Notes under the pieces: model-generated | The model's database searches: none | Seen by the model: the letters and a program-made list of their open reading frames with translations, nothing else | Told to the model about the DNA's origin: nothing | Origin: a phage | Sequence record: PV419677.1 | Direction: 5' to 3' (one strand) | Length of the DNA stretch: 64,000 nucleotides | Part shown: piece after piece, positions 755 to 61,764 of the stretch | Layout of the letters: each line of letters starts with the position of its first letter | Position numbering within the stretch: position 1 is the first letter of the stretch | Made by a program: the position numbers and the translations under genes

Positions 755-766
755 AATGCACCTTGT

Positions 767-804
767 TTGCTTTAAAACAATCAGTGTTATAATGGTTCTA
801 GACC
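767..804 (+). promoter_or_regulatory. MotA-type middle promoter module (TTGCTTTA, 13 nt, TATAAT) followed by palindromic element GGTTCTAGACC; oriented antisense to the downstream HNH gene
   Basis: TTGCTTTA at 767-774, TATAAT at 788-793, GGTTCTAGACC at 794-804; same module recurs at 37917-37955, 43231-43266, 61727-61764 and in variant form at 27761-27797. Confidence 0.45.
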
Positions 805-839
805 TTTTGTCCTTACCAATAACACTGACCGATAATAGA

Positions 840-1514
840 TTATTTTATTAATGTGTTAAGTCTTAGCTTAGTCATAAACGGATAACGTTCCAACATTGGC
901 TTTACCCAGTATCGAGGATGCAATTCCTTTTTATATGCTAGGACCAACTCTCGAGCTTGCTCGACGGTATCAACTCCGAAGTTTTTACACATTTCTTGCC
1001 TATCTTTTTCCCACCGGCGCTTTCTCAATTCATCCTGAATCTCTTTATTTTTAAAATGTTCATTATTGCGAGAATGTTTTGTACCCTTGGTTGGACTGTA
1101 ATGTCTTCCTTTGACAAACCCATCCGGAACATCTTCCCATGGAAATAGTTTTATCGATTTGACACCATTATTAAAGTAAACTTTACCGGTTTGACTTTTA
1201 GAAATATTGTCAGCGTGCCTACGTCTTAACCAACCAAATAATTTATTATTGCGTTTCAAATACTTGCTTGACTGACTCATAGATGTGGCGGCAAAACTTA
1301 AACCTGGATTTGTATGATATATTTTAACCAATAGTTGATGGGCTACATAATGTTCCTCTGGAGTCAAATCGACCAGATTATCTGGGTCATTGGAACCGCC
1401 CATACATTTTGGAATGATGTGATGAGATTCTTTATATGAAATCAGGACCCTATTACGGGCCCTTTCAATTAACGATAAATATATAAACTGATAATTCAAA
1501 GTGAATTTCTCCAT
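840..1514 (-). CDS. HNH homing endonuclease (freestanding, Mob-like)
   Basis: Motif [31 protein letters not shown] is a classic HNH core; AT-rich relative to neighbours; absent from this position in T4; start overlaps the 3' end of gene 2 by 19 nt. Confidence 0.8.
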
Positions 1515-9363: not shown

Positions 9364-12300
9364 ATGATGAGTGTTAAAGCCCCTTATGTAACCAGCTTAC
9401 GGATTGATAAACTATCTGCTAACCAGGTTAGCATAAAATGGGATAATGTTGGCGCCAACTTTTATTATTTTGTTGAGATTGCTACGACAAAAGAAAATGG
9501 TGTTGCTATTCCAGAAGAAAATCTGTTATGGAGGAATTTAGGTTATACTCCAGACAATGAATGGTTCGAACAAGATTTTATTCGTCCAGTATCATTTTAC
9601 AAAATGCGTGTTGCTGTTGCAGCAATGGGTTTTGAACAATCTGATTGGGTTTATACCGAAGAATTTGAAACCTTTGCAACTAACGCATACACATTTGAGC
9701 ACATGCGTGAATTTACATTAACAAATAAATTCATCGAAGAAAAATTCACAAACAATAACCAAGCTTATATCAACTTTAATAATGATGCAATTATGGCATC
9801 GCTGATGTCTGAAGATTTTAGCTTTACTCCTGCGTATTCTCATTTGTCTTCAATTTCAAACTATGTATTAAAAGAAGACCAATATCATGAAATTCAGGGT
9901 AACATTCAGCCGGTATGTAACGATGTTAATCGTACAATGATTGCTGAACTTGGTGGCGTACTGTATTTGTTTGAACGATTCCAGACAACTGTCAAAGTCT
10001 CCAATGATAAAGGGCAGAACTGGTATTATGTAAAATTGTTTAATGACCGTATCGGTAACCCAGTATCGCGCACAATTTATTATCAATCAGATACAACAAC
10101 TTACGTACTCGGGTATGACCGAATTTTTTACGGCCGCAAATCAAGTGACATAAGATGGTCTGCTGATGATGTTCGATTCAGTTCCCAGGATATAACATTT
10201 GCAAAAATTGGTTCGGATATCAATCTTGGATTTGATATTGAAATATTTGGCACATACGCAAGACTTCCTGCTTATATCTCGACAATTGCTGAAGCAATCA
10301 CTACGACCGATTCCATGATTTACGTTGCCGGGCGCGACCGCGTGTACAAAGCTAAATCTTCTGATGCTCCAATTGATAACGACCCCAACTCCCCAACATT
10401 CGGTGAAAAATTATTTGAAGCTGGATATAGCACAATAAGTGGTAACCCCAAAGCTGTTTGTTACAAGATGGATTCAATTGACGGTGAAGTGTTTGCATTA
10501 ATCACGGGTGAAGTAAAAGAAGAGCGACAAGACCCGACTAAACCTGAAAACGTTGTCGATTCGTTATCTAAGGGCGTTTATAAATTAAATGCTGACACCG
10601 ATACATGGACACGAGTTTTTGGTAACACAGAGGATGAACGTCGACGTATTGAACATGGTTACACAAGCATGTCAACCGACGGAATTGAACTTTTTATCAG
10701 TTCAAGTAACTTCCGTTATTCCGTAGAGCCGGATACTGAACTCCCTGCTAAGTATCCTGAAGAAGTTAATGAAGCAGTCAAATATGTGTATGATGAACAA
10801 TGGATACATGACAAGCATTATTTGATGATGAGTTTTAGGTCGAATAAAGATTCAGGTTGGGAAGAGTTTAAACCTGGCCGTATGTCATATTACGCTGAAC
10901 CGTTCTTTAACTGGTCTCGTCGTGATGATACTCGTTGTTGGATTACTACGTCAGACAGAGCTCTGGTTGTATATAATGACATGCTATATCAAAAGATTAT
11001 CGATACCTTTGGTGGTTCATCCCCTGAACGTATTGTACACGAATACTGGAATAAAGGTCAAGTAAAAGTTACTTCGCCTAACATCGAATTCAATGGCTTT
11101 AAAAAATACGCCTCGGGTATTATGTTACACAAAAATACTGGAGAGCTTATTGGCTATTTTGAATTTGACTATCGTAGACGTGATGAAGTTAGATTAATCT
11201 GGAAACCGAAAGAAGTTATGTTCACTGCAGAATTACAGAACCAGGAACATGATATTCCATGGACACCAGATAATGACGAACAAGAGAAAGACCCAGACTT
11301 GCGTCCTCTTTTAACAAAGATGGTTCCGGATAGTTATTTGCTCCAGGATAGCAACTTTGAAAAATTCTGTGAATATTATTTGCAGTTTATCAGTGATGGC
11401 TCTGGTACCTATTATAACAACCTTTTGAACTTGATTCGCAACCAGTACCCGCGCGAGGAAGATGCATGGGAATACCTTTGGAGCGAAATGTACAAAAGAA
11501 ATATATATTTGTCAAAGACCAAGCGTGACGAAGTAGTTCGTTTCTTTGAAGCAAGACAGTCTGATTTTTGGGCCACTAAGGGTACTGAAGCATCCTATAA
11601 GTTTTTGTTCAAATTGTTATATAATGAAGACGTTGAAATCGATATTGAATCCAAGAACGGAACCGAGTATGACATAATCGTCGAATCTGATAACATCAGC
11701 GAAGATATTGTTGGACAAACAATTTACACACCAACTGGTCGCAGTAACGTTACTTATATGGAACGTGACTACAAACAGGGTAAATTGAGATGGCGTATCA
11801 CGATTCATAACTTACTTGGTCGCTTTATTGTTGGGCAAGAAATTAAATCCGAAAGGACTTCCTTTGAAGGTATGATTGTTCAGGGTGTTCGTGGGAAAGA
11901 ATTACTTAGCAACAACATCGATTATATCAACCGAAATCGTTCTTACTATGTAATGACCATTAAATCAAGTCTCCCAACATCTCGTTATCGTAATGACGTA
12001 TTGCGATTTGTTCATCCGGTTGGATTTGGATTCGTTGGAATTACATTATTGACAATGTTTGTTAATGCTGGTCTGTCATTAAAACATACAGAAACTATTA
12101 TCAATAAACTGAACAACTATCGTTGGTCGTCTGGTATTCCGTCAGAATGGTGCGACCGTATCGCAGTTATTGGGGCCGATGGAAACATTGAGCATAGTCC
12201 TGTTACAGGTGAAGCAGTATATAATATTGCTCCTAATGCAGGTTTACCATTCCCATTACCAGCAGATTACGATGCCGAAAACGATTTTTCGGATTTTCAT

Positions 12301-25083: not shown

Positions 25084-27063
25084 ATGGCTTTATTATCCCC
25101 GGGCATTGAGCTCAAAGAAACAACGGTACAAAGCACTGTTGTTCGTAACGCGACGGGTCGTGCGGCGCTGGTTGGTAAATTCCAGTGGGGCCCAGCTTTC
25201 CAGGTAACTCAAATTACAAACGAAGTTGAACTTGTTGATTTGTTTGGTGGTCCGAATAATGAAACAGCAGATTACTTTATGAGTGGGATGAACTTCCTGC
25301 AATATGGTAATGACCTCCGTACTGTACGTGTTGTTAACCGTGACGAAGCTAAAAACGCATCCCCTATTGCTGGCAATATTGAAACTACCATCGTAACTGC
25401 TGGTACAAACTATGCTGTCGGTGATGTTATTCAGGTTAAACACAACCAGACTGTTGTTGAACCGGCTGGCCGTGTGACCAAGGTCGACGTTGATGGTAAA
25501 ATTCTGGCAATCTTTATTCCTACAAATAAGATTATTGCATTTGCCAAAACTATTAACCAGTATCCTAATTTAGGTAGTGCATGGACCGCGGAAGTTACAA
25601 CCACTTCTTCTGGTGTATCTGGTACCATCACCGTTGGGAAAATTGTTACCGATTCTGGCATTCTGTTGACTGAAGCAGAAAACAGTGAAGAAGCAATTAC
25701 TTCTCTGGAATTCCAGGCATCACTAGCAAAATATGCAATGCCAGGTGTTGTTGCTCTTTATCCAGGTGAAATCGGTTCGACTTTGGAAGTTGAAATCGTA
25801 TCTAAAGCTGACTTTGAAAAAGGCGCAGCTGCAAATCTGAATATTTTCCCAGGCGGCGGAACGCGTGCTTCTGTGGCTCGTGCCGTGTTTAACTATGGCC
25901 CGCAGTCTGAAAACCAATATGCAATTATCGTTCGCCGCGATGGCGCAATCGTCGAAAACGTTGTTTTGTCTACCAAACAGGGCGAAAAAGATGTTTACGG
26001 TAATAACATTTACTTGGATGACTACTTTGCAAAAGGTACTTCCAACTACATCTATGCAACATCTCGCAACTGGCCTGCAGGCTTCAGTGGTATCATCAAT
26101 CTGTCTGGTGGTATTTCTGCAAACGATAAGATTACCGCTGGTGATTTGATGCAAGGTTGGGACCTGTTTGCTGACCGTGAAGCACTGCATATTAACCTGC
26201 TTATCGCTGGTGCTGTTGCCGGTGAAGGTGATGCGACTGCTTCCACTGTTCAGAAACACGTGGTTTCTATTGCTGACGAACGTCAGGATTGTCTGGCATT
26301 TATTTCCCCGCCGAAAGGTCTGTTGGTTAACGTTCCTCTGACCCGTGCAGTGGATAACCTGATTGACTGGCGTACAGGTGCTGGCGCATTTGATACTGAT
26401 AACATGAATATCAGCACGACTTATGCAGCGATTGATGGCAACTATAAATATCAGTATGATAAATATAATGACGTTAACCGTTGGGTTCCTCTGGCAGCTG
26501 ATATGGCTGGTCTGTGTGCTCGTACTGATGATGTTTCTCAGCCTTGGATGTCTCCGGCTGGTTATAACCGCGGTCAGATTCTGAACGTTCTGAAATTGGC
26601 TGTTGAACCACGTCAGACCCAACGTGACCGCATGTATCAAGAAGCTATCAACCCGGTTGTTGGTTTCGCAGGTGGTGATGGTTTTGTTCTGTATGGTGAT
26701 AAGACTGCAACTAAAGTTCCATCTCCGATGGACCATATTAACGTTCGTCGTCTTACGAATATGCTGAAGAAAAATATCGGTGATGCATCCAAATATAAAC
26801 TGTTTGAGCTTAACGATAACTTCACTCGTGCATCATTCCGTATGGAAACTTCTCAATACTTGGATGGTATTCGTGCACTTGGTGGCATTTATGAAGGTCG
26901 TGTAGTTTGTGATACTACTAACAACACCCCGGCGGTTATAGACCGAAATGAGTTTGTTGCTAGCATATATTTTAAACCAGCAAGGTCGATAAATTTTATC
27001 ACGCTTAATTTCGTAGCAACAAGCACGGGCGCTGATTTTGATGAGTTGATTGGAGCGAACTAA
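25084..27063 (+). CDS. 18: gp18 tail sheath protein
   Basis: 659 aa equals T4 gp18. Confidence 0.95.
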   Translation: MALLSPGIELKETTVQSTVVRNATGRAALVGKFQWGPAFQVTQITNEVELVDLFGGPNNETADYFMSGMNFLQYGNDLRTVRVVNRDEAKNASPIAGNIETTIVTAGTNYAVGDVIQVKHNQTVVEPAGRVTKVDVDGKILAIFIPTNKIIAFAKTINQYPNLGSAWTAEVTTTSSGVSGTITVGKIVTDSGILLTEAENSEEAITSLEFQASLAKYAMPGVVALYPGEIGSTLEVEIVSKADFEKGAAANLNIFPGGGTRASVARAVFNYGPQSENQYAIIVRRDGAIVENVVLSTKQGEKDVYGNNIYLDDYFAKGTSNYIYATSRNWPAGFSGIINLSGGISANDKITAGDLMQGWDLFADREALHINLLIAGAVAGEGDATASTVQKHVVSIADERQDCLAFISPPKGLLVNVPLTRAVDNLIDWRTGAGAFDTDNMNISTTYAAIDGNYKYQYDKYNDVNRWVPLAADMAGLCARTDDVSQPWMSPAGYNRGQILNVLKLAVEPRQTQRDRMYQEAINPVVGFAGGDGFVLYGDKTATKVPSPMDHINVRRLTNMLKKNIGDASKYKLFELNDNFTRASFRMETSQYLDGIRALGGIYEGRVVCDTTNNTPAVIDRNEFVASIYFKPARSINFITLNFVATSTGADFDELIGAN

Positions 27064-27130: not shown

Positions 27131-27736
27131 GTGATTATTTCTAAATTTGTTGAAGTTCAAATACGAAATCATGCAAAGTGGTGGAGCGAATACTTAGGTA
27201 AAACTCTAACATATCATGATGTGATTTCTGTACCAGTTGAACAAATGCCAGATAATAGTAATAAAAAGATTGAATGTTCCTGTGATGAATGTGGTGCACA
27301 TTTTGAACGTGGTATTCAGTTGCTTCGGCGCGTTGATAAACATTTATGTAAGACCTGCGCAAGAAAAGATGTGGGTGCAAAAGTTTCTGTAAAAATGGCT
27401 GGAGTATCAAGATTTGATTTACGAGGAGAAAACCACCCTAGATGGAAAGGTAATCGCAAAGAATATGATTTGTATGCCCAGCGCATTCATGCATTAACTC
27501 GTGGAAAACATCTAAAGAATATTTGGTCAACATGGGAAAATGCAGATAAGATAGGAAAATGTGGAGAAGAAGGTGCATATCAGCTTGACCATAAAGTTTC
27601 TATTGCATATGGATTTTATAATCATATACCAGAGACAGTTATCGCTTCGCTCAACAATTTAGAAATAGTCACTTGGGAATCTAATAGGTCCAAAGGAAAA
27701 TCAAATAGTATTGACTTATGGGATATATTATCCTGA
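27131..27736 (+). CDS. HNH homing endonuclease with N-terminal zinc ribbon, inserted between genes 18 and 19
   Basis: CSCDEC...CKTC zinc ribbon; ENHPRWKG; YQLDHKVSIAYGF...NNLEIVTWESNRSKG (HNH core); GTG start with SD AAGGA; no gene here in T4. Confidence 0.8.
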   Translation: MIISKFVEVQIRNHAKWWSEYLGKTLTYHDVISVPVEQMPDNSNKKIECSCDECGAHFERGIQLLRRVDKHLCKTCARKDVGAKVSVKMAGVSRFDLRGENHPRWKGNRKEYDLYAQRIHALTRGKHLKNIWSTWENADKIGKCGEEGAYQLDHKVSIAYGFYNHIPETVIASLNNLEIVTWESNRSKGKSNSIDLWDILS

Positions 27737-27760
27737 CAGTAAATGTAATTAAGCAGTAAA

Positions 27761-27813
27761 CCGTAGAACCATTATACAATGCTATAAATAAAAGCATATC
27801 ATCGGTTCTACGG
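27761..27813. repeat. perfect 10-bp inverted repeat (CCGTAGAACC / GGTTCTACGG) with a 33-nt loop carrying promoter signals on both strands
   Basis: Plus-strand TATAAATA at 27783-27790; minus-strand TATAAT (27771-27776) with MotA-like box TGCTTTT upstream, directing transcription antisense into the HNH gene. Confidence 0.5.
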
Positions 27814-36804: not shown

Positions 36805-36825
36805 GGGCCTTGCGGCCCTTTTTTT
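36805..36825 (+). terminator. rho-independent terminator after gene 24 copy B
   Basis: GGGCC-TTGC-GGCCC followed by T7. Confidence 0.6.
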
Positions 36826-37831
36826 ATTCACTAATTAATGCAATCCATACATGTCTTAATGTTTCTTTTACATTTGCGATAAGTTGCTTTTTAACTTCAA
36901 CAGGATTTTCTGTCTGGGTTAATTCAAGTCCTTCACGACCCGCTTCTTCCAGGATATCCTGGACAGTCAAACCCATTACCTTCCCAAAATCCTTCGGCGA
37001 TACTTCCCCAATCTTACTGATAACATTGTTAATACGGTTGACAGTCACATAATCAGTAAACTTCCATAAAACATCCAGGTCTTCCTGGGACAACACAACA
37101 GCAGCCTTAATAGGCTTATCAGACTTTTTCTTTTCGCTGAATTTAGAGTTCTTACATTTAATCGCTACACGCTCGCCGTTAGGTAACCATGCAGGAACAT
37201 CAGGTTTTAATACAAATCCTTCAGCAGTGAATACTTTACCTTCCACTTTTGCATCAAAATCAGTGGTATTTGCTGTAGTCAATCCTGCGTTATCCACTGT
37301 AAAATTGTAATCAGGGACCACAGAATCCAGGTCATTAGGGAGCTTAATCAAGTCTTCAAAGCTACCTGTGGCCAGGCGTGGAGCAACTTTAAACTTATGA
37401 ATAATACAAAAGGCTTCCATAAGTGTGTCAGTCAGGACGGATTCAGAGCCATCTTCCTTAGTAACGCGGATATCAAACACATAGAAATCTTTATCGCCGT
37501 AATCCACATTCTTCTGGATACCTGTACCAGCAAACTCACCATAAATCTGGTAAGCCTGGTAATTAATATCCTGTAAAAGTTTCTGCACAGATTTAATAGA
37601 ATCTGCGTAGTTCTTTAATACAATTTCATAACCATAGAAATCTTCTGCAGGTAGGATAGGTCCAGTGCGTTTCGCGCATGTCACATTGTCTTGTTCAATG
37701 ATTAATGAAAAGTTGGTACCATGAATCTTTTCACGAGCTACCCATTCACCGCTGGTGAAGCCTTGCAGGCGAATCTTTTCAATGAACTTGTTATTATAGT
37801 GATTTTCAAGGCTGTTGTATTTCTTAAACAT
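36824..37831 (-). CDS. rnlB: RNA ligase 2
   Basis: 335 aa; [12 protein letters not shown]...[13 protein letters not shown] (KxHGxN nucleotidyltransferase motif), close to recalled T4 Rnl2. Confidence 0.9.
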
Positions 37832-37916
37832 AATCTCTCACTTTTGATGTTATAAATATCATTATAAATTAGACCCGCTATACTTTTTTTCTCTGAAAGG
37901 AATTAATAGTCACAAA

Positions 37917-37955
37917 GGGTCTAGAACCATTATACCGCATTTTTATTTGAAGCAA
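37917..37955 (-). promoter_or_regulatory. MotA-type middle promoter module with GGTTCTAGACC element, upstream of rnlB
   Basis: Minus strand: TTGCTTCA (37955-37948), 13 nt, TATAAT (37934-37929), then GGTTCTAGACCC. Confidence 0.5.
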
Positions 37956-41954: not shown

Positions 41955-42181
41955 TGAAATCCTTTGAAGAAATTATGTACGAAGCATCAATTGAAGGCTT
42001 TATGGCTAAGATTGGTTCCTGTCAGACCATGGACGGTCTGAAGGAGTTGGAAGGCTATTATAAAAAACGCAGCAAAGAAGCCGAACTAAAAGATTCCGAT
42101 GATATCAGTGTTCGCGATGCTCTTGCCGGTAAACGCGCCGAGCTTGAGGATATGGACGAAGACGAAGACGAAGATTTCTAA
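41954..42181 (+). CDS. UvsW.1-like small acidic protein
   Basis: 75 aa, synteny. Confidence 0.6.
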   Translation: MKSFEEIMYEASIEGFMAKIGSCQTMDGLKELEGYYKKRSKEAELKDSDDISVRDALAGKRAELEDMDEDEDEDF

Positions 42182-42238
42182 ATAAAAAGGCCCCAACCAA
42201 AAGGAAGGGGCAAAACCAAAAATGGTTAACAACACTAG

Positions 42239-42406
42239 CTAAATTAAAAGTTGGGTCTCGTTCAGTTGCTCTTCTGTATTTTCCGTAACTGGCAAACTCT
42301 GAACATAATTATAACAGGCGCCCGGATGCACCGGACCTTGGTCTGTATCCACAACCAATGCAGAATCGATTGGAGTTTTACAGACAACACAAATCTTATC
42401 TGACAT
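42239..42406 (-). CDS. small zinc-ribbon-like protein (55 aa), not in ORF track
   Basis: Hand translation: MSDKICVVCKTPIDSALVVDTDQGPVHPGACYNYVQSLPVTENTEEQLNETQLLI; strong SD GAGGAG 6 nt upstream. Confidence 0.45.
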   Translation of the reverse strand: MSDKICVVCKTPIDSALVVDTDQGPVHPGACYNYVQSLPVTENTEEQLNETQLLI

Positions 42407-42434
42407 GATTGTCTCCTCAGTTAAACTTACATAT

Positions 42435-42545
42435 CTATTTAGTGCTCTTCATAATAGCAGCACGAGCTTTCATCTCATTAACAATTTCAGTTATTCGGTT
42501 TGCAGAGATAACCATCTCGTCGAGAATCTTACTAATATTTTTCAT
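42435..42545 (-). CDS. possible small ORF (36 aa), translationally coupled to the upstream gene
   Basis: ATG immediately follows upstream TAA (TAAATG); MKNISKILDEMVISANRITEIVNEMKARAAIMKSTK. Confidence 0.3.
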   Translation of the reverse strand: MKNISKILDEMVISANRITEIVNEMKARAAIMKSTK

Positions 42546-42779
42546 TTAATTTTCCTTAAAGTATCTCATACCAGTATCTATCCCCATATTGTGAGAATAG
42601 AACGCATCATCGATGTATCCTGCAAATTTACCTTTAACATAGATAACATCTTCACCGCAAGGGTGGTCAGCGCAGATACGAATATCTGCACGATTCAATT
42701 TCCATTCCTTCATCATATACTTAATTTCTTCTTCGAACTCTTCGTCTTGGTTAAACGCATCGTCGATAGAATATCGCAT
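42546..42779 (-). CDS. hypothetical protein downstream of uvsY (uvsY.-1 position)
   Basis: 77 aa ORF, start overlaps uvsY stop. Confidence 0.6.
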   Translation of the reverse strand: MRYSIDDAFNQDEEFEEEIKYMMKEWKLNRADIRICADHPCGEDVIYVKGKFAGYIDDAFYSHNMGIDTGMRYFKEN

Positions 42780-43213
42780 TATTTGCCTGCCTCGAATTGT
42801 CTTATTTCTAACATATGTTTAAGTGCGAAACTTCGCGACTTAACACCATCTAATGCAGCGCTACAGAAGTCCTGGAGTAGTGCCCAATACTGAATTGAAG
42901 TATCAATCTTCAGTATGTTTGAATCTGCTGCCATGACTGTTTTCAATTCCGACTTCTCGTATACATCCATGCATACCTCTTCCCCTGGGTCACCTCTTCC
43001 AGTATAATGGTCTAGTCGTTTTTTCAGTGCAGTTTTCTTCTGAATCTCAAGACGCATTATTTCTTTCTTGCAGTTGGTATACAATCTCAACCATTTGCTA
43101 TGCAACAAAACGTTGTTTTGTGTTTCATATTGAAGTTGCGTACCATCAATTTTTAAATCCGCATCTAACTCATCCTGAAAGACTTCTAACTTATATTCAA
43201 TCTCTGTTTTCAT
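42779..43213 (-). CDS. uvsY: UvsY recombination mediator
   Basis: From ATG 43213: MKTEIEYKLEVFQDELDADLKI..., aligns with recalled T4 UvsY start; the track start 43243 lies inside the promoter palindrome. Confidence 0.85.
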   Translation of the reverse strand: MKTEIEYKLEVFQDELDADLKIDGTQLQYETQNNVLLHSKWLRLYTNCKKEIMRLEIQKKTALKKRLDHYTGRGDPGEEVCMDVYEKSELKTVMAADSNILKIDTSIQYWALLQDFCSAALDGVKSRSFALKHMLEIRQFEAGK

Positions 43214-43230
43214 AATGTATCCAATGTAAG

Positions 43231-43266
43231 GGTCTAGAACCATTATACAGCCATAAAATTAAAGCA
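43231..43266 (-). promoter_or_regulatory. MotA-type middle promoter module with GGTTCTAGACC element, upstream of uvsY
   Basis: Minus strand: AATGCTTTA (box at 43266-43260, overlapping gp25 stop), 12 nt, TATAAT (43247-43242), GGTTCTAGACC (43241-43231). Confidence 0.55.
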
Positions 43267-43656
43267 TTAACCGTTTTGACTTAGCTGAATCCTGATTTGT
43301 TCGAGGGTGTCAGGGTCATCAACAATGCTGAACTGAACCGTTACGATAATGGAGTTATCATCATACATAGGGACAACTGCAACCTGTAGATTGCTTATTC
43401 TTGGTTCGAAGTTCCGCACCGCGGAGACGATGTTGCGTTTAATGGTATCTGTAATTAACGGTGTGATATTCTCAAAAAGCTGATTACTTATATCACATCC
43501 AAATTCAGGCATAAAAGGCCGTGACCCTTTTCTTGTGGTGATTATTCCCAGAAGACTGTTCTTAACAGACCTTGCACCAGTTACTTTAGCAACGTCTTTA
43601 TCCCAACTTGTAGATAAGTCGGGAGATACATCGCTATACATTTTGTTTATATTCAT
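43267..43656 (-). CDS. 25: gp25 baseplate wedge protein
   Basis: 129 aa; LLGIITTRKGSRPFMPEFGCD...FSIVDDPD matches recalled T4 gp25. Confidence 0.9.
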   Translation of the reverse strand: MNINKMYSDVSPDLSTSWDKDVAKVTGARSVKNSLLGIITTRKGSRPFMPEFGCDISNQLFENITPLITDTIKRNIVSAVRNFEPRISNLQVAVVPMYDDNSIIVTVQFSIVDDPDTLEQIRIQLSQNG

Positions 43657-44313
43657 TTACATAAACTTAAAGAATTCTTTAAGCCCCTTAATTACATGGA
43701 CAGAATGCGCTCCGCACTCACAAGAGATAGGAATAGCCATTTGGACCTGTGGCTTGAGAAGTTCTTCGGTTAGTGCATTTATATCATCGAGGGTAATTGC
43801 GTTGTATAGGTCCTCGATTTCGGCTTCATTTAAGTCATCAACAACGATGCGCTCGCCACCTTCCGTGATAATATATTCGATACAACAAGCAATCATTTTA
43901 CCTTTATCGCCGTCTTCAAACAACCCAGGATAACGGAATTTAATTTTAAATGCCCCGAAATCACGAATAACTTCAGACTCATCCACGATGCTTGCACGAC
44001 TTATAGTCACAGGAATATCTTGTTCCTTTCCGCATTCGCATACCCATGTATGCTCGACGTTAACAGCTCCGAGACTATTTGCCCAGAGATTAATAAGAAG
44101 CAGCTCGGCTTCCTGTTTGTTTAACCCTTTAGCATCAGTGCATTTATTAAGCAGTTCAATTATTGCAGGTTCCATACGCTTTTCTAATTTTGCCTGAAGC
44201 AAATCTTTGTATTCGCGCAATGTAAAAGCCCTACAATTTATAGTTTTATTTTTAATTTGGACAATAAATTCATAAGTCATAATTTGCTCCTTTACTGTAT
44301 TTATAAATATCAA
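43657..44313 (-). CDS. 26: gp26 baseplate hub protein
   Basis: 218 aa (T4 208), synteny. Confidence 0.8.
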   Translation of the reverse strand: MIFINTVKEQIMTYEFIVQIKNKTINCRAFTLREYKDLLQAKLEKRMEPAIIELLNKCTDAKGLNKQEAELLLINLWANSLGAVNVEHTWVCECGKEQDIPVTISRASIVDESEVIRDFGAFKIKFRYPGLFEDGDKGKMIACCIEYIITEGGERIVVDDLNEAEIEDLYNAITLDDINALTEELLKPQVQMAIPISCECGAHSVHVIKGLKEFFKFM

Positions 44314-44333
44314 TAAAGATAAAAGGGGATTCT

Positions 44334-45086
44334 ATGGCCAATATCGTAAGATGTGAAATGCCAGACGGAGTTCATCGTTTCAAACCGTTTACAGTCGCTG
44401 ATTACCGTGATTTACTGCTTGTGCGAAACGACATGAACAACAAACCCGTCGAAGAACAAAAACAATTATTAGACGAACTGTTGGAAGATTATTTTGGAGA
44501 GTATCCGAAAGCATGGAGACCATACATATTCTTGAAGGTATTCACTTCCTCTATCGGTAAGACAAAAGTCCCGGTAGCGTTCGAATGTCAAAAATGTAAA
44601 AAGACAAAGCAGACTTTGTTTAATATGAGCCAAGGTCCATTGACAAATCCAACAATGGAAACCGCGGGGATAAAAATACAATTTAAGTTCCCTGAAGTAG
44701 AATATAAAGATAAGTCGGAGCTTGTTCTAAACACCATCCAGACTGTCGAAGACTCAGAACAAAAATACAATTGGGAAGACCTTCCTGAAGAAACGAAGAT
44801 GCAGGTTATTGATGCAATTGATATAGAGAGTCTCGAAGAGCTCCTTAAGAAAATGCATTCAGTTTATATTCCATTTACATATGGTTGCTGCGAAAAACAC
44901 AAAACCGAATATACAGACTTGATTGATGTCTTTAAGCTTATCCTTAACCCGGATGAAGTCTTTGTATTTTATCAAATTAACCACTTACTGGTAAAGAATC
45001 AATATACACTGGATAGCATCATGCACATGATTCCTATCGAACGAGGTATTGCTTTATCGTTAGTTGAGAAGGACTTGAAGAAATGA
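44334..45086 (+). CDS. 51: gp51 baseplate hub assembly catalyst
   Basis: 250 aa (T4 249), synteny. Confidence 0.85.
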
Positions 45087-61413: not shown

Positions 61414-61692
61414 TTAAATTGCTTCGACAACTACCGTTTGTTTCTGGAAGTCCATTTTGCATGAAATAGCCAAAATGTGGTTATCAATTTTAAATGGAAC
61501 AATTGCAAATGCTGCACCAGGCGTGAGTTGAACAGTGATTGCATCAACTGCATCCGGGAACATGATTTCCAGAATAGCAGACAAACGACCGTGCACTTTT
61601 AGTTCAGTCGACACGTCGACGCTTTCGTATAGATAATCAGATACAATCTGACTAAAAAGTACTTTAACAATTTCAGAATATGTAGGAAACAT
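61414..61692 (-). CDS. hypothetical protein (cd.4 position)
   Basis: 92 aa ORF. Confidence 0.5.
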   Translation of the reverse strand: MFPTYSEIVKVLFSQIVSDYLYESVDVSTELKVHGRLSAILEIMFPDAVDAITVQLTPGAAFAIVPFKIDNHILAISCKMDFQKQTVVVEAI

Positions 61693-61726
61693 TTCTTTTC
61701 TCGCTTAGTTATTGGGGCTATCCAAA

Positions 61727-61764
61727 GGACCTAGACCCCATTATACCATAAAATTTTTAAAGCG
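61727..61764 (-). promoter_or_regulatory. MotA-type middle promoter module, variant palindrome (GGGGTCTAGGTCC)
   Basis: Minus strand: CGCTTTA (61764-61758), 12 nt, TATAAT (61745-61740), palindrome-like element. Confidence 0.45.

What the first reader, a model, noticed from the sequence alone, without database searches (positions are those of the whole stretch)
43231..43266. Dispersed middle-promoter module with a conserved palindrome at the transcript start (5 copies)
The string MotA box (TGCTTYA), 12-13 nt, TATAAT, GGTTCTAGACC(C)TT occurs at 767-804 (+), 37917-37955 (-), 43231-43266 (-) and in variant form at 61727-61764 (-) and 27761-27797 (-). The promoter part is expected for T4 middle promoters. 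The invariant palindromic 11-mer right at the predicted +1 to +12 is not part of the canonical promoter and is conserved more strictly than the promoter itself. It could be an operator for a phage or host protein, an RNA 5'-end determinant, or the core of a mobile promoter cassette. In three copies the MotA box abuts or overlaps the stop codon of the upstream gene.
Basis: seen in the sequence. Interest (0 to 1): 0.55.

Follow-up and report, generated by a model that had tools for sequence, protein, structure and literature searches.

The report
Middle promoters sharing a start-site box
Five phage "middle" promoters in this T4-like genome share an extra conserved stretch that straddles the transcription start; the same promoter subclass exists in T4 and its relatives, sometimes pointing backwards into neighbouring genes, and each phage lineage keeps its own version of the stretch.

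Summary
TATAATGGTTCTAGACC occurs exactly three times (copies 1-3), and two variants exist (copies 4-5). Each follows a MotA-type box at 12-13 nt.

The window is a Gaprivervirus (SP18/VR-like T-even phage). Copy 3 is the uvsY promoter, the ortholog of T4 PuvsY (oriF).

The register is wrong. The start sites mapped in T4 for PuvsY and PnrdC.7 fall on the A of TCTA. The motif therefore spans about -6 to +8 (discriminator, start site, first transcribed bases), not +1 to +12.

The dyad symmetry is not conserved in relatives, so a palindromic operator is unlikely.

The box defines a subclass:
- T4 has it in 2 (plus one variant) of 58 listed middle promoters, and in two unlisted antisense promoter-like sites.
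- SP18 has seven copies.
- Four sites are syntenic across at least 8 lineages: uvsY, downstream of nrdC.8, gp3/gp2 antisense and srd/modA antisense.

Copies within one genome share lineage-specific variants (permutation 0/5000), while the spacers differ. This is concerted evolution without whole-cassette copying.

Best reading: an RNA-polymerase-read initiation box of strong MotA promoters. A co-evolving trans factor or an origin-type role is not excluded. It is a new variant of a known kind, of moderate interest.

The parts
767..813 (+). Copy 1, between gp3 (155-754, -) and an inserted HNH endonuclease gene followed by gp2. It points antisense to them. MotA box TGCTTTA 768-774; -10 TATAAT 788-793; box GGTTCT-A-GACCTTTT 794-807; inferred +1 = A800.
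   Evidence: The same module lies in the gp3/gp2 gap of SP18, which has no endonuclease gene there, in T4 and in at least 8 lineages.
37909..37955 (-). Copy 2, the sense promoter upstream of rnlB (36824-37831, -). MotA box TGCTTCA 37954-37948; -10 37934-37929; box 37928-37915; inferred +1 = A37922.
   Evidence: The SP18 equivalent is at 108491.
43222..43266 (-). Copy 3 (the flagged site), the uvsY promoter and positional ortholog of T4 PuvsY/oriF. MotA box TGCTTTA 43266-43260, overlapping the gp25 stop codon (43269-43267); -10 43247-43242; box 43241-43228; inferred +1 = A43235. The likely uvsY start codon is ATG 43213.
   Evidence: The T4 start site 115371 is on the homologous A.
61720..61764 (-). 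Copy 4 (variant), the sense promoter upstream of the cd.3 homolog (61414-61692, -; DUF7355). MotA box CGCTTTA 61764-61758; -10 61745-61740; box GGGGTCT-A-GGTCCTTT 61739-61724. The A of TCTA is at 61732, one base further from the -10 than in the other copies.
27755..27798 (-). Copy 5 (variant), between gp18 (25084-27063, +) plus an inserted ORF and gp19. It points antisense. MotA-like box TGCTTTT about 27796-27790; -10 27776-27771; box GGTTCT-A-CGGTTTAC 27770-27757; inferred +1 = A27764.
   Evidence: It is present in SP18, which has no inserted ORF there.
27804..27813 (+). GGTTCTACGG, the inverted-repeat partner of the box of copy 5 (CCGTAGAACC 27761-27770). With it, the repeat brackets the whole promoter. 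A late-promoter consensus TATAAATA (27783-27790, +) lies in the spacer, back-to-back with the middle promoter.
   Evidence: conserved in SP18
840..1514 (-). Free-standing HNH homing-endonuclease gene. It is absent from SP18 and inserted right next to copy 1, convergent with it. Context only; not part of the promoter.
27131..27736 (+). Inserted ORF (phrog_5104, weak homing-endonuclease similarity). It is absent from SP18 and sits right next to copy 5, convergent with it. Context only.

Best explanation
The five sites are MotA/AsiA-dependent (sigma-appropriation) middle promoters of a Gaprivervirus T-even phage. They belong to a conserved subclass.

In this subclass the -10 hexamer is followed by a conserved 'initiation box'. 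In this phage it reads GGTTCT-A(+1)-GACC(C)TT. The family consensus is TATAAT-GGTYYT-A-RGTYC-YT. The box is the discriminator (-6 to -1), the start nucleotide and the first 5-8 transcribed bases.

Most likely mechanism (inferred):
- Host RNA polymerase reads the box in the open complex. G at -6/-5 would contact sigma70 region 1.2. A pyrimidine at -1 followed by the A at +1, and G at +2 in this phage, would contact the core enzyme.
- This fixes initiation at the A, 7 nt after the -10. It also gives a strong, stable promoter that compensates for the lost -35 contact.

Three copies drive genes: uvsY, rnlB and cd.3. Two are conserved antisense promoters (gp3/gp2 and gp18/gp19). They fire into the 3' ends of late genes before late transcription begins.

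Shown:
- The sequence anatomy.
- Orthology to mapped T4 promoters.
- Conservation at syntenic sites.
- Restriction to a subclass of middle promoters.
- Lineage-specific co-variation of the box.

Inferred:
- The RNA polymerase contacts.
- Promoter strength.
- Any role of the antisense transcripts.
For: Identity of the phage and of copy 3:
- The window is 99.4% identical to Gapriverviruses.
- The relative SP18 encodes motA and asiA.
- Copy 3 lies between gp25 and uvsY, as T4 PuvsY does.

Register:
- Hinton 2010 (PMC2988021, Table 1) lists the start sites of PuvsY (115371) and PnrdC.7 (53325).
- Both fall on the A of TATAATGxxTCT-A.

Subclass:
- Only 2-3 of 58 mapped T4 middle promoters carry the box. 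Most have AT-rich discriminators.
- In SP18, 6-7 of about 23 strict MotA-type matches carry it.

Specificity:
- With a PWM trained on non-T4 lineages, all hits of 15 bits or more in the T4 genome (2) are promoter-linked.
- The same holds for the 6 such hits in SP18, though the PWM was partly trained on Gaprivervirus sequences.

Conservation:
- In an alignment of the gp3/gp2 gap from 7 lineages (gp3 down to 51% identity), TATAATGG, A(+1) and C(+5) are invariant. The rest of the gap varies.
- Four syntenic sites carry the module in several genera.

Spacers between the MotA box and the -10 are unrelated among copies. Conservation is therefore block-wise, as expected for functional elements.

G at -6 is invariant in every copy and lineage. 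This fits the known sigma region 1.2 pocket for G-6. That pocket is established knowledge recalled from memory (Zhang et al. 2012 Science), not tested here.
Against: - All these phages use the same enterobacterial RNA polymerase. Yet copies within a genome share lineage-specific variants: AGACC here, AAGTCC in T4, TGAGTTC in another lineage. Within-genome distance is 3.56 against 4.82 for orthologs, with 0 of 5000 permutations reaching the observed value. Reading by the polymerase alone does not predict this.
- G at +2 is not conserved. T4 has A at that position.
- Most T4 middle promoters work without the box.
- No expression or start-site data exist for this phage.
- The antisense copies in T4 are absent from the classical promoter list. 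I could not check them against the published dRNA-seq table.
Confidence: 0.6

Rival explanations
1. The box is the recognition site of a phage-encoded trans-acting factor that co-evolves with it. The factor could be a protein bound to DNA over -6 to +8, for example a timer or repressor of a sub-regulon of middle promoters. It could also be a factor that recognises the first 6-9 nt of the transcripts. A third possibility is a lineage-specific DNA modification that changes which sequence RNA polymerase prefers.
For: - Copies in one genome share lineage-specific variants at up to four independent sites, while orthologous sites differ between genera.
- The spacer is not homogenised. At the nrdC.8-downstream site, T4-like, JS98-like and one Gaprivervirus contig share the spacer 'taccaaggatgg' (a second Gaprivervirus contig has 'tcccaaggatgg'), while the box changes between them.
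- The box is strictly promoter-linked and is kept despite genome-wide CTAG depletion.
Against: - Dyad symmetry is not conserved, so a classical dimeric operator is unlikely.
- Only half of the box is transcribed.
- The predicted 5' RNAs have no significant structure.
- No candidate factor was identified.
- To my knowledge (from memory, not tested here), T4 PuvsY is fully activated in vitro by RNAP+AsiA+MotA alone. An extra activator is therefore not required.
Confidence: 0.25
2. Box promoters are origin-type promoters. Like T4 oriF (PuvsY) and oriG (P34i, antisense inside late gene 34), their transcripts would form persistent R-loops that prime early DNA replication. The antisense copies in late-gene regions would then be additional origins.
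For: - Copy 3 is the ortholog of the oriF promoter.
- The anatomy of copies 1 and 5 (a middle promoter pointing against late genes) matches oriG.
- With a PWM trained without T4 sequences, P34i ranks 5th of 60 T4 middle promoters, directly after the four box promoters.
- The review PMC3016281 notes that early T4 DNA synthesis starts mostly in late-gene regions.
Against: - The same review states that no sequence motif is shared among T4 origins. It also states that oriF and oriG have little homology and that R-loop formation at oriF needs no specific sequence, only an unwinding element.
- The T4 box promoters at 11.9, 53.3 and 76.0 kb do not coincide with the annotated origins at 16.8, 79.4, 115.3 and 152.9 kb.
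- The ranking of P34i is a post hoc observation.
Confidence: 0.12
3. The identity is historical rather than functional. The modules would be copies of a mobile or duplicated promoter cassette, or would be homogenised by short-patch gene conversion in these highly recombinogenic phages. The box itself would have no role.
For: - Within-genome homogeneity.
- Lineage-specific extra copies (rnlB, cd.3 and gp18/gp19 in Gaprivervirus).
- Copy 5 is bracketed by a 10-bp inverted repeat.
- Homing-endonuclease genes lie next to copies 1 and 5.
Against: - Spacers and flanks share no similarity.
- Four positions are syntenic across genera.
- The box is the best-conserved part of an otherwise variable intergenic region over deep divergence.
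- The endonuclease genes are insertions beside pre-existing modules. SP18 has the modules without them.
Confidence: 0.1

Closest known systems
T4 MotA/AsiA-dependent middle promoters (sigma appropriation), specifically PuvsY and PnrdC.7
   Same: - MotA box centred near -30, 12-13 nt spacing and a consensus TATAAT.
- Copy 3 is the positional ortholog of PuvsY.
- T4 PuvsY and PnrdC.7 carry the homologous box (TATAATGAATCTAAGTCC / TATAATGGTTCTAAGCCC). Their mapped starts fall on the A of TCTA.
   Different: - The published consensus stops at the -10 (PMC2988021).
- The -6 to +8 box, its restriction to a subclass, its lineage-specific co-variation and the conserved antisense members are not part of that description, as far as my limited literature search shows.
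T4 R-loop replication origins oriF (ori uvsY) and oriG (ori34): a middle promoter plus a downstream unwinding element
   Same: - The uvsY promoter is the oriF promoter in T4.
- Antisense middle promoters embedded in late-gene regions resemble oriG.
- P34i has a box-like start region, GGTCCCAGAG.
   Different: - Origin function needs an unwinding element and was not tested.
- T4 box promoters outside uvsY are not mapped origins.
- The literature reports no shared origin motif.
PeSL 'promoter-early stem-loop' mobile regulatory cassettes of RB49/phi1-type phages (Arbiol et al. 2010; recalled from memory)
   Same: Dispersed, repeated promoter modules at gene boundaries in T4-type genomes.
   Different: - PeSLs are sigma70 early promoters repeated as whole cassettes with a stem-loop, and they mediate module shuffling.
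- Here only the functional blocks are conserved.
- Spacers differ and positions are syntenic across genera.
- Only one copy has flanking inverted repeats.
Sigma70 discriminator / core recognition element contacts (G-6 pocket in sigma region 1.2, G+2 pocket in beta; recalled from memory)
   Same: - G at -6 is invariant.
- The start site is a pyrimidine at -1 followed by a purine at +1, placed 7 nt after the -10.
- This phage has G at +2.
   Different: - Conservation extends to about +8.
- It differs between lineages that share one host polymerase.
Palindromic operators overlapping a start site (lac O1-type)
   Same: A partial dyad (5 of 6 pairs) centred on the start site in copies 2 and 3.
   Different: - The dyad is not conserved in copies 4 and 5, in T4 PuvsY or in other lineages.
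- No cognate repressor is known.

Membership tests
MotA/AsiA-dependent middle promoter | MotA box (a/t)(a/t)(a/t)TGCTTtA centred near -30 | tested here: met
   The boxes are TGCTTTA (copies 1 and 3), TGCTTCA (copy 2), CGCTTTA (copy 4) and TGCTTTT (copy 5). The C-variant also occurs in the mapped T4 promoters PnrdC.7 and Pdex.2.
MotA/AsiA-dependent middle promoter | Sigma70-type -10 element TAtaaT placed 12 +/- 1 bp after the MotA box | tested here: met
   All five copies have TATAAT, with spacers of 12-13 nt.
MotA/AsiA-dependent middle promoter | The phage encodes MotA and AsiA | tested here: inconclusive
   The genes lie outside the 64-kb window. The 97.7%-identical relative SP18 encodes both.
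MotA/AsiA-dependent middle promoter | MotA-dependent transcript start about 7 nt after the -10 | not testable with these tools
   Start sites are mapped only for the T4 orthologs PuvsY and PnrdC.7 (PMC2988021 Table 1). No data exist for this phage or for the antisense copies.
oriF/oriG-type R-loop replication origin | A middle-mode promoter | tested here: met
   See the rows above. Copy 3 is the positional ortholog of the T4 oriF promoter.
oriF/oriG-type R-loop replication origin | [quoted passage not shown] | not testable with these tools
   These need replication or R-loop assays. Sequence composition alone is not discriminating in a genome of 41% G+C.
Mobile promoter cassette (PeSL-like) | The whole cassette, spacer and flanks included, is repeated | tested here: not met
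   Only the MotA box and the -12 to +8 region are shared. Spacers and flanks are unrelated.
Mobile promoter cassette (PeSL-like) | Positions vary between related genomes | tested here: not met
   Four positions are syntenic across genera. Three further copies are lineage-specific, so some gain or loss does occur.
Palindromic operator | Dyad symmetry maintained across copies and relatives | tested here: not met
   Dyad matches are 5 of 6 pairs in copies 2 and 3. They fall to 2-4 of 6 in copies 4 and 5, in T4 PuvsY and in JS98-like and other lineages.

The most novel reading that the evidence does not exclude
The box marks a hidden regulon inside the MotA middle class. A lineage-co-evolving trans-acting reader, or a lineage-specific DNA-modification context, would recognise the -6 to +8 region. 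It would co-ordinate uvsY with conserved antisense transcripts against modA and against late genes 2 and 18.

Alternatively, the box would mark R-loop-prone, origin-type promoters. In that case T-even phages would carry more oriF/oriG-like initiation sites than are mapped.
Probability: 0.25. Interest if true: 0.75.

Novelty: new variant of a known kind. Interest (0 to 1): 0.5.

Why it matters
T4 middle transcription is a textbook system, and PuvsY is one of its standard promoters and is also the promoter of replication origin oriF. The following features do not appear in the reviews I could read:
- A conserved start-site box shared by a small subclass of middle promoters.
- Conservation of that box at four syntenic sites across genera.
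- Two sites that are antisense promoters, against modA and against late gene 2, and that are absent from the classical T4 promoter list.
- Lineage-specific co-variation of the box.

If the box is read only by RNA polymerase, it is a useful addition to promoter models for T4-like phages and to their annotation. If a co-evolving factor reads it, or if it relates to R-loop priming, it opens a testable new layer of T-even gene or replication control.

Tried and rejected
- **Chance or a restriction site.** Rejected. Three exact 17-mers occur, all promoter-linked. TCTAGA and CTAG are otherwise depleted.
- **Palindromic operator.** The dyad is not conserved.
- **A 5' RNA structure shared by the transcripts.** Folding of the predicted 5' regions gives z-scores of -0.5 to +1.0. 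AGACCC pairs with GGGUCU in the rnlB leader, but the fold is no better than shuffled sequences.
- **A conserved RNA structure of the gp2-gp3 intergenic region on the late-mRNA strand.** Inverted repeats flank the promoter in several lineages (CAGTGT/ACACTG here, CTGTTG/CAACAG in T4, CCCGGACAGT/ACTGGCCGGG elsewhere). RNAalifold found no consensus pairs. This remains unexplained.
- **A known RNA family.** No Rfam match in the window.
- **Intrinsic terminators downstream of the antisense promoters that would define small RNAs.** None found on the relevant strand.
- **Homing endonucleases as carriers of the modules.** Rejected. SP18 has both modules without the endonuclease genes.
- **A motif shared by all T4 origins.** The oriA and oriE promoter regions lack the box.
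- **Promoter features in T4 records.** Neither NC_000866 nor AF158101 carries any at the antisense sites.
- **The supplementary start-site table of the T4 dRNA-seq preprint.** It is not held.
- **Resemblance of GGTTCnAGnCC to a tRNA T-arm.** Noted, and dismissed as unsupported.

Full report
**What the window is.** The region 42000-45000 is 99.4% identical to Escherichia phages TH22, TH55 and UPEC07, and 97.7% identical to Shigella phage SP18 (Straboviridae, Tevenvirinae, Gaprivervirus). Gene order follows T4 from gene 3 to pseT. The flagged site, 43231-43266 (-), lies between gp25 and uvsY.

**Check of the observation.** All five sites are present as described.
- GGTTCTAGACC occurs exactly three times, and in all three the identity extends to TATAATGGTTCTAGACC.
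- Looser matches to the 11-mer are at chance level: 12 found against 9.6 expected.
- The two variant copies (61745-61727, TATAATGGGGTCTAGGTCC; 27776-27761, TATAATGGTTCTACGG) therefore rest on the combination of a MotA-like box, 12-13 nt spacing and TATAATGG.
- A strict scan for a MotA box plus a -10 finds seven sites in the window. Three of them carry the exact motif.
- The stop codons of the upstream genes do overlap or abut the MotA box in copies 2, 3 and 4.

**Register.** T4 has the homologous module.
- PuvsY reads ATGCTTCA-N12-TATAATGAATCTAAGTCC. PnrdC.7 reads CCGCTTTA-N12-TATAATGGTTCTAAGCCC.
- Hinton's review lists their mapped start sites as 115371 and 53325 (PMC2988021, Table 1). Both are the A of TCTA, 7 nt after the -10.
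- By homology, the motif here spans -6 to +5, and with the following (C)TT to about +8. It covers the discriminator, the start site and the first transcribed bases, not +1 to +12.
- Inferred starts are A800, A37922, A43235, about A61732 and A27764.

**Anatomy and context.**
- Copies 2, 3 and 4 are sense promoters for rnlB, uvsY and a cd.3 homolog.
- Copy 1 is on the + strand between gp3 and gp2, which are both on the - strand. Copy 5 is on the - strand between gp18 and gp19, which are both on the + strand. Both copies therefore fire antisense into the 3' end of a late gene.
- In this phage, each of these two copies is adjacent to an inserted ORF: an HNH homing endonuclease (840-1514) and a phrog_5104 ORF (27131-27736).
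- SP18 lacks both insertions but has both modules. The modules are therefore native intergenic elements.
- Copy 5 is bracketed by a 10-bp inverted repeat. It is back-to-back with a late-promoter consensus.

**A subclass, not the general consensus.**
- Of the 58 mapped T4 middle promoters, only PuvsY and PnrdC.7 carry the box. PnrdD+ has a variant, GAATCTGACACC. Most of the others have AT-rich discriminators.
- Genome-wide, T4 has two further copies. Both are on the + strand between - strand genes: at 11885 (srd/modA) and at 75988 (gene 3/gene 2). Neither is in the classical list.
- SP18 has seven copies: srd/modA antisense, downstream of nrdC.8, gp3/gp2 antisense, gp18/gp19 antisense, rnlB, uvsY and cd.3.
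- I trained a PWM on non-T4 lineages. Every hit of 15 bits or more in the T4 genome is one of these promoters. The same holds for SP18, although the PWM was partly trained on Gaprivervirus sequences. Weaker hits are scattered.

**Depth of conservation.**
- I used uvsY, gp3, srd and nrdC.8 proteins to fetch loci from IMG/VR. The four syntenic sites carry the module in many T4-like lineages.
- In an alignment of the gp3/gp2 gap from seven lineages (gp3 identity down to 51%), TATAATGG, A(+1) and C(+5) are invariant. The rest of the gap varies.
- The family consensus is roughly TATAAT-GGTYYT-A-RGTYC-YT.

**Concerted evolution.** Copies in one genome share lineage-specific variants.
- This genus has GGTTCT(A)GACC at four sites.
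- T4-like phages have G[GA]NTCTAAG[TC]CC at four sites.
- Another lineage has GGTTTTGAGTTC at two sites, and another has GGTTYTGAGTTCC at two sites.
- Over 13 nt, the mean edit distance is 3.56 between sites within a genome and 4.82 between orthologous sites of different lineages. None of 5000 permutations reached the observed value.
- The spacers are unrelated among copies. At the nrdC.8-downstream site, T4-like, JS98-like and one Gaprivervirus contig share the same spacer while the box changes between them. Whole-cassette duplication or conversion does not explain this pattern.

**The palindrome.** Dyad symmetry is 5 of 6 pairs in copies 2 and 3. It is only 2-4 of 6 in copies 4 and 5, in T4 PuvsY and in several other lineages. 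It is not the conserved feature.

**Mechanism.**
- The best-supported reading is an initiation box of a subclass of MotA promoters. It would be read in the open complex by host RNA polymerase: the invariant G at -6, usually G at -5, a pyrimidine at -1 followed by the A at +1, and G at +2 in this phage. It would set the start at the A and probably strengthen promoters that have lost the -35 contact. The polymerase contacts are inferred from general knowledge recalled from memory, not tested here.
- The lineage-specific co-variation is not explained by a shared host polymerase. It keeps a co-evolving trans factor, or a modification-dependent contact, as a serious rival.
- The origin reading has some support. 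Copy 3 is the oriF ortholog. The antisense copies resemble oriG. T4 P34i ranks fifth of 60 with the box PWM, directly after the four box promoters.
- The origin reading also meets objections. The T4 origin review reports no shared origin motif and no sequence requirement for R-loop formation beyond an unwinding element. The other T4 box promoters are not at mapped origins.

**What the antisense transcripts do** remains unknown. No terminators or significant RNA structures were found, and there is no Rfam match.

**Novelty.** The kind of element is known (MotA-dependent middle promoter), and copy 3 is the ortholog of T4 PuvsY. In the reviews and papers I could search I found no description of:
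- the shared start-site box;
- its restriction to a subclass of middle promoters;
- the conserved antisense members;
- the lineage-specific co-variation.

A 2024-2026 preprint reports 22 antisense T4 start sites, but its table was not available to me. I rate the finding a new variant of a known kind, with interest 0.5.

Noticed in passing
whole window (also SP18, loci L001, L007-L009): GATC is almost absent: 1 site in 64 kb here and 5 in 170 kb of SP18, against 188 in T4. SP18 has no dam gene between gp56 and gp61. CTAG is also depleted: 32 sites against 57 (Markov) or 233 (base composition) expected.
   Followed up: partly
window 840-1514 (-) and 27131-27736 (+): Two free-standing ORFs are absent from SP18. 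One is an HNH homing endonuclease (phrog_655). The other belongs to phrog_5104, with weak endonuclease similarity. Each is inserted immediately next to a conserved antisense promoter module and is convergent with it. The conserved box might serve as part of a homing target, but this was not tested.
   Followed up: partly
window 27761-27813: The 10-bp inverted repeat CCGTAGAACC/GGTTCTACGG brackets the whole copy-5 promoter. A late-promoter consensus TATAAATA (27783-27790, +) sits inside the spacer, giving back-to-back middle and late promoters. The arrangement is conserved in SP18.
   Followed up: partly
window about 37868-37882 (-): A second, degenerate box copy (TATAGCGGGTCTAAT, with no MotA box) lies about 45 nt downstream of copy 2. 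Its GGGUCU can pair with the AGACCC at the predicted 5' end of the rnlB leader. The fold is no better than shuffled sequences.
   Followed up: partly
window 43213-43243 (-); SP18 114171: The longest uvsY ORF starts at the ATG inside TATAATGG (43243), and SP18 is annotated that way (154 aa). That ATG lies upstream of the inferred transcript start. The real start is probably ATG 43213 (MKTEIEYK..., 144 aa), which aligns with the start of T4 UvsY.
   Followed up: partly
T4 NC_000866 11885-11902 (+) and 75988-76005 (+) (loci L004, L003): Two well-formed MotA-type promoters carrying the box lie on the strand opposite to the flanking genes (srd/modA and gene 3/gene 2). They are conserved in several genera but absent from the 58-promoter list of the 2010 review.
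   Followed up: partly
gp3/gp2 intergenic region: window 755-839; T4 L003 3956-4061; IMG/VR loci L029, L032-L034: Short inverted repeats of differing sequence flank the antisense promoter in several lineages: CAGTGT/ACACTG, CTGTTG/CAACAG, CCCGGACAGT/ACTGGCCGGG and CCCTG/CAGGG. RNAalifold found no common structure, and the meaning is unknown.
   Followed up: partly
window 818-825 and 61706-61713 (-); T4 PuvsY leader: CCAATAAC recurs about 15-25 nt downstream of the start in copy 1, in copy 4 and twice in the T4 uvsY leader. It may be chance.
   Followed up: no
window 43003-43018 (+): TATAATGGTCTAGTCG lies inside the uvsY coding region on the opposite strand. It has no MotA box and encodes RLDHYTG on the coding strand, so it is probably chance.
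   Followed up: partly
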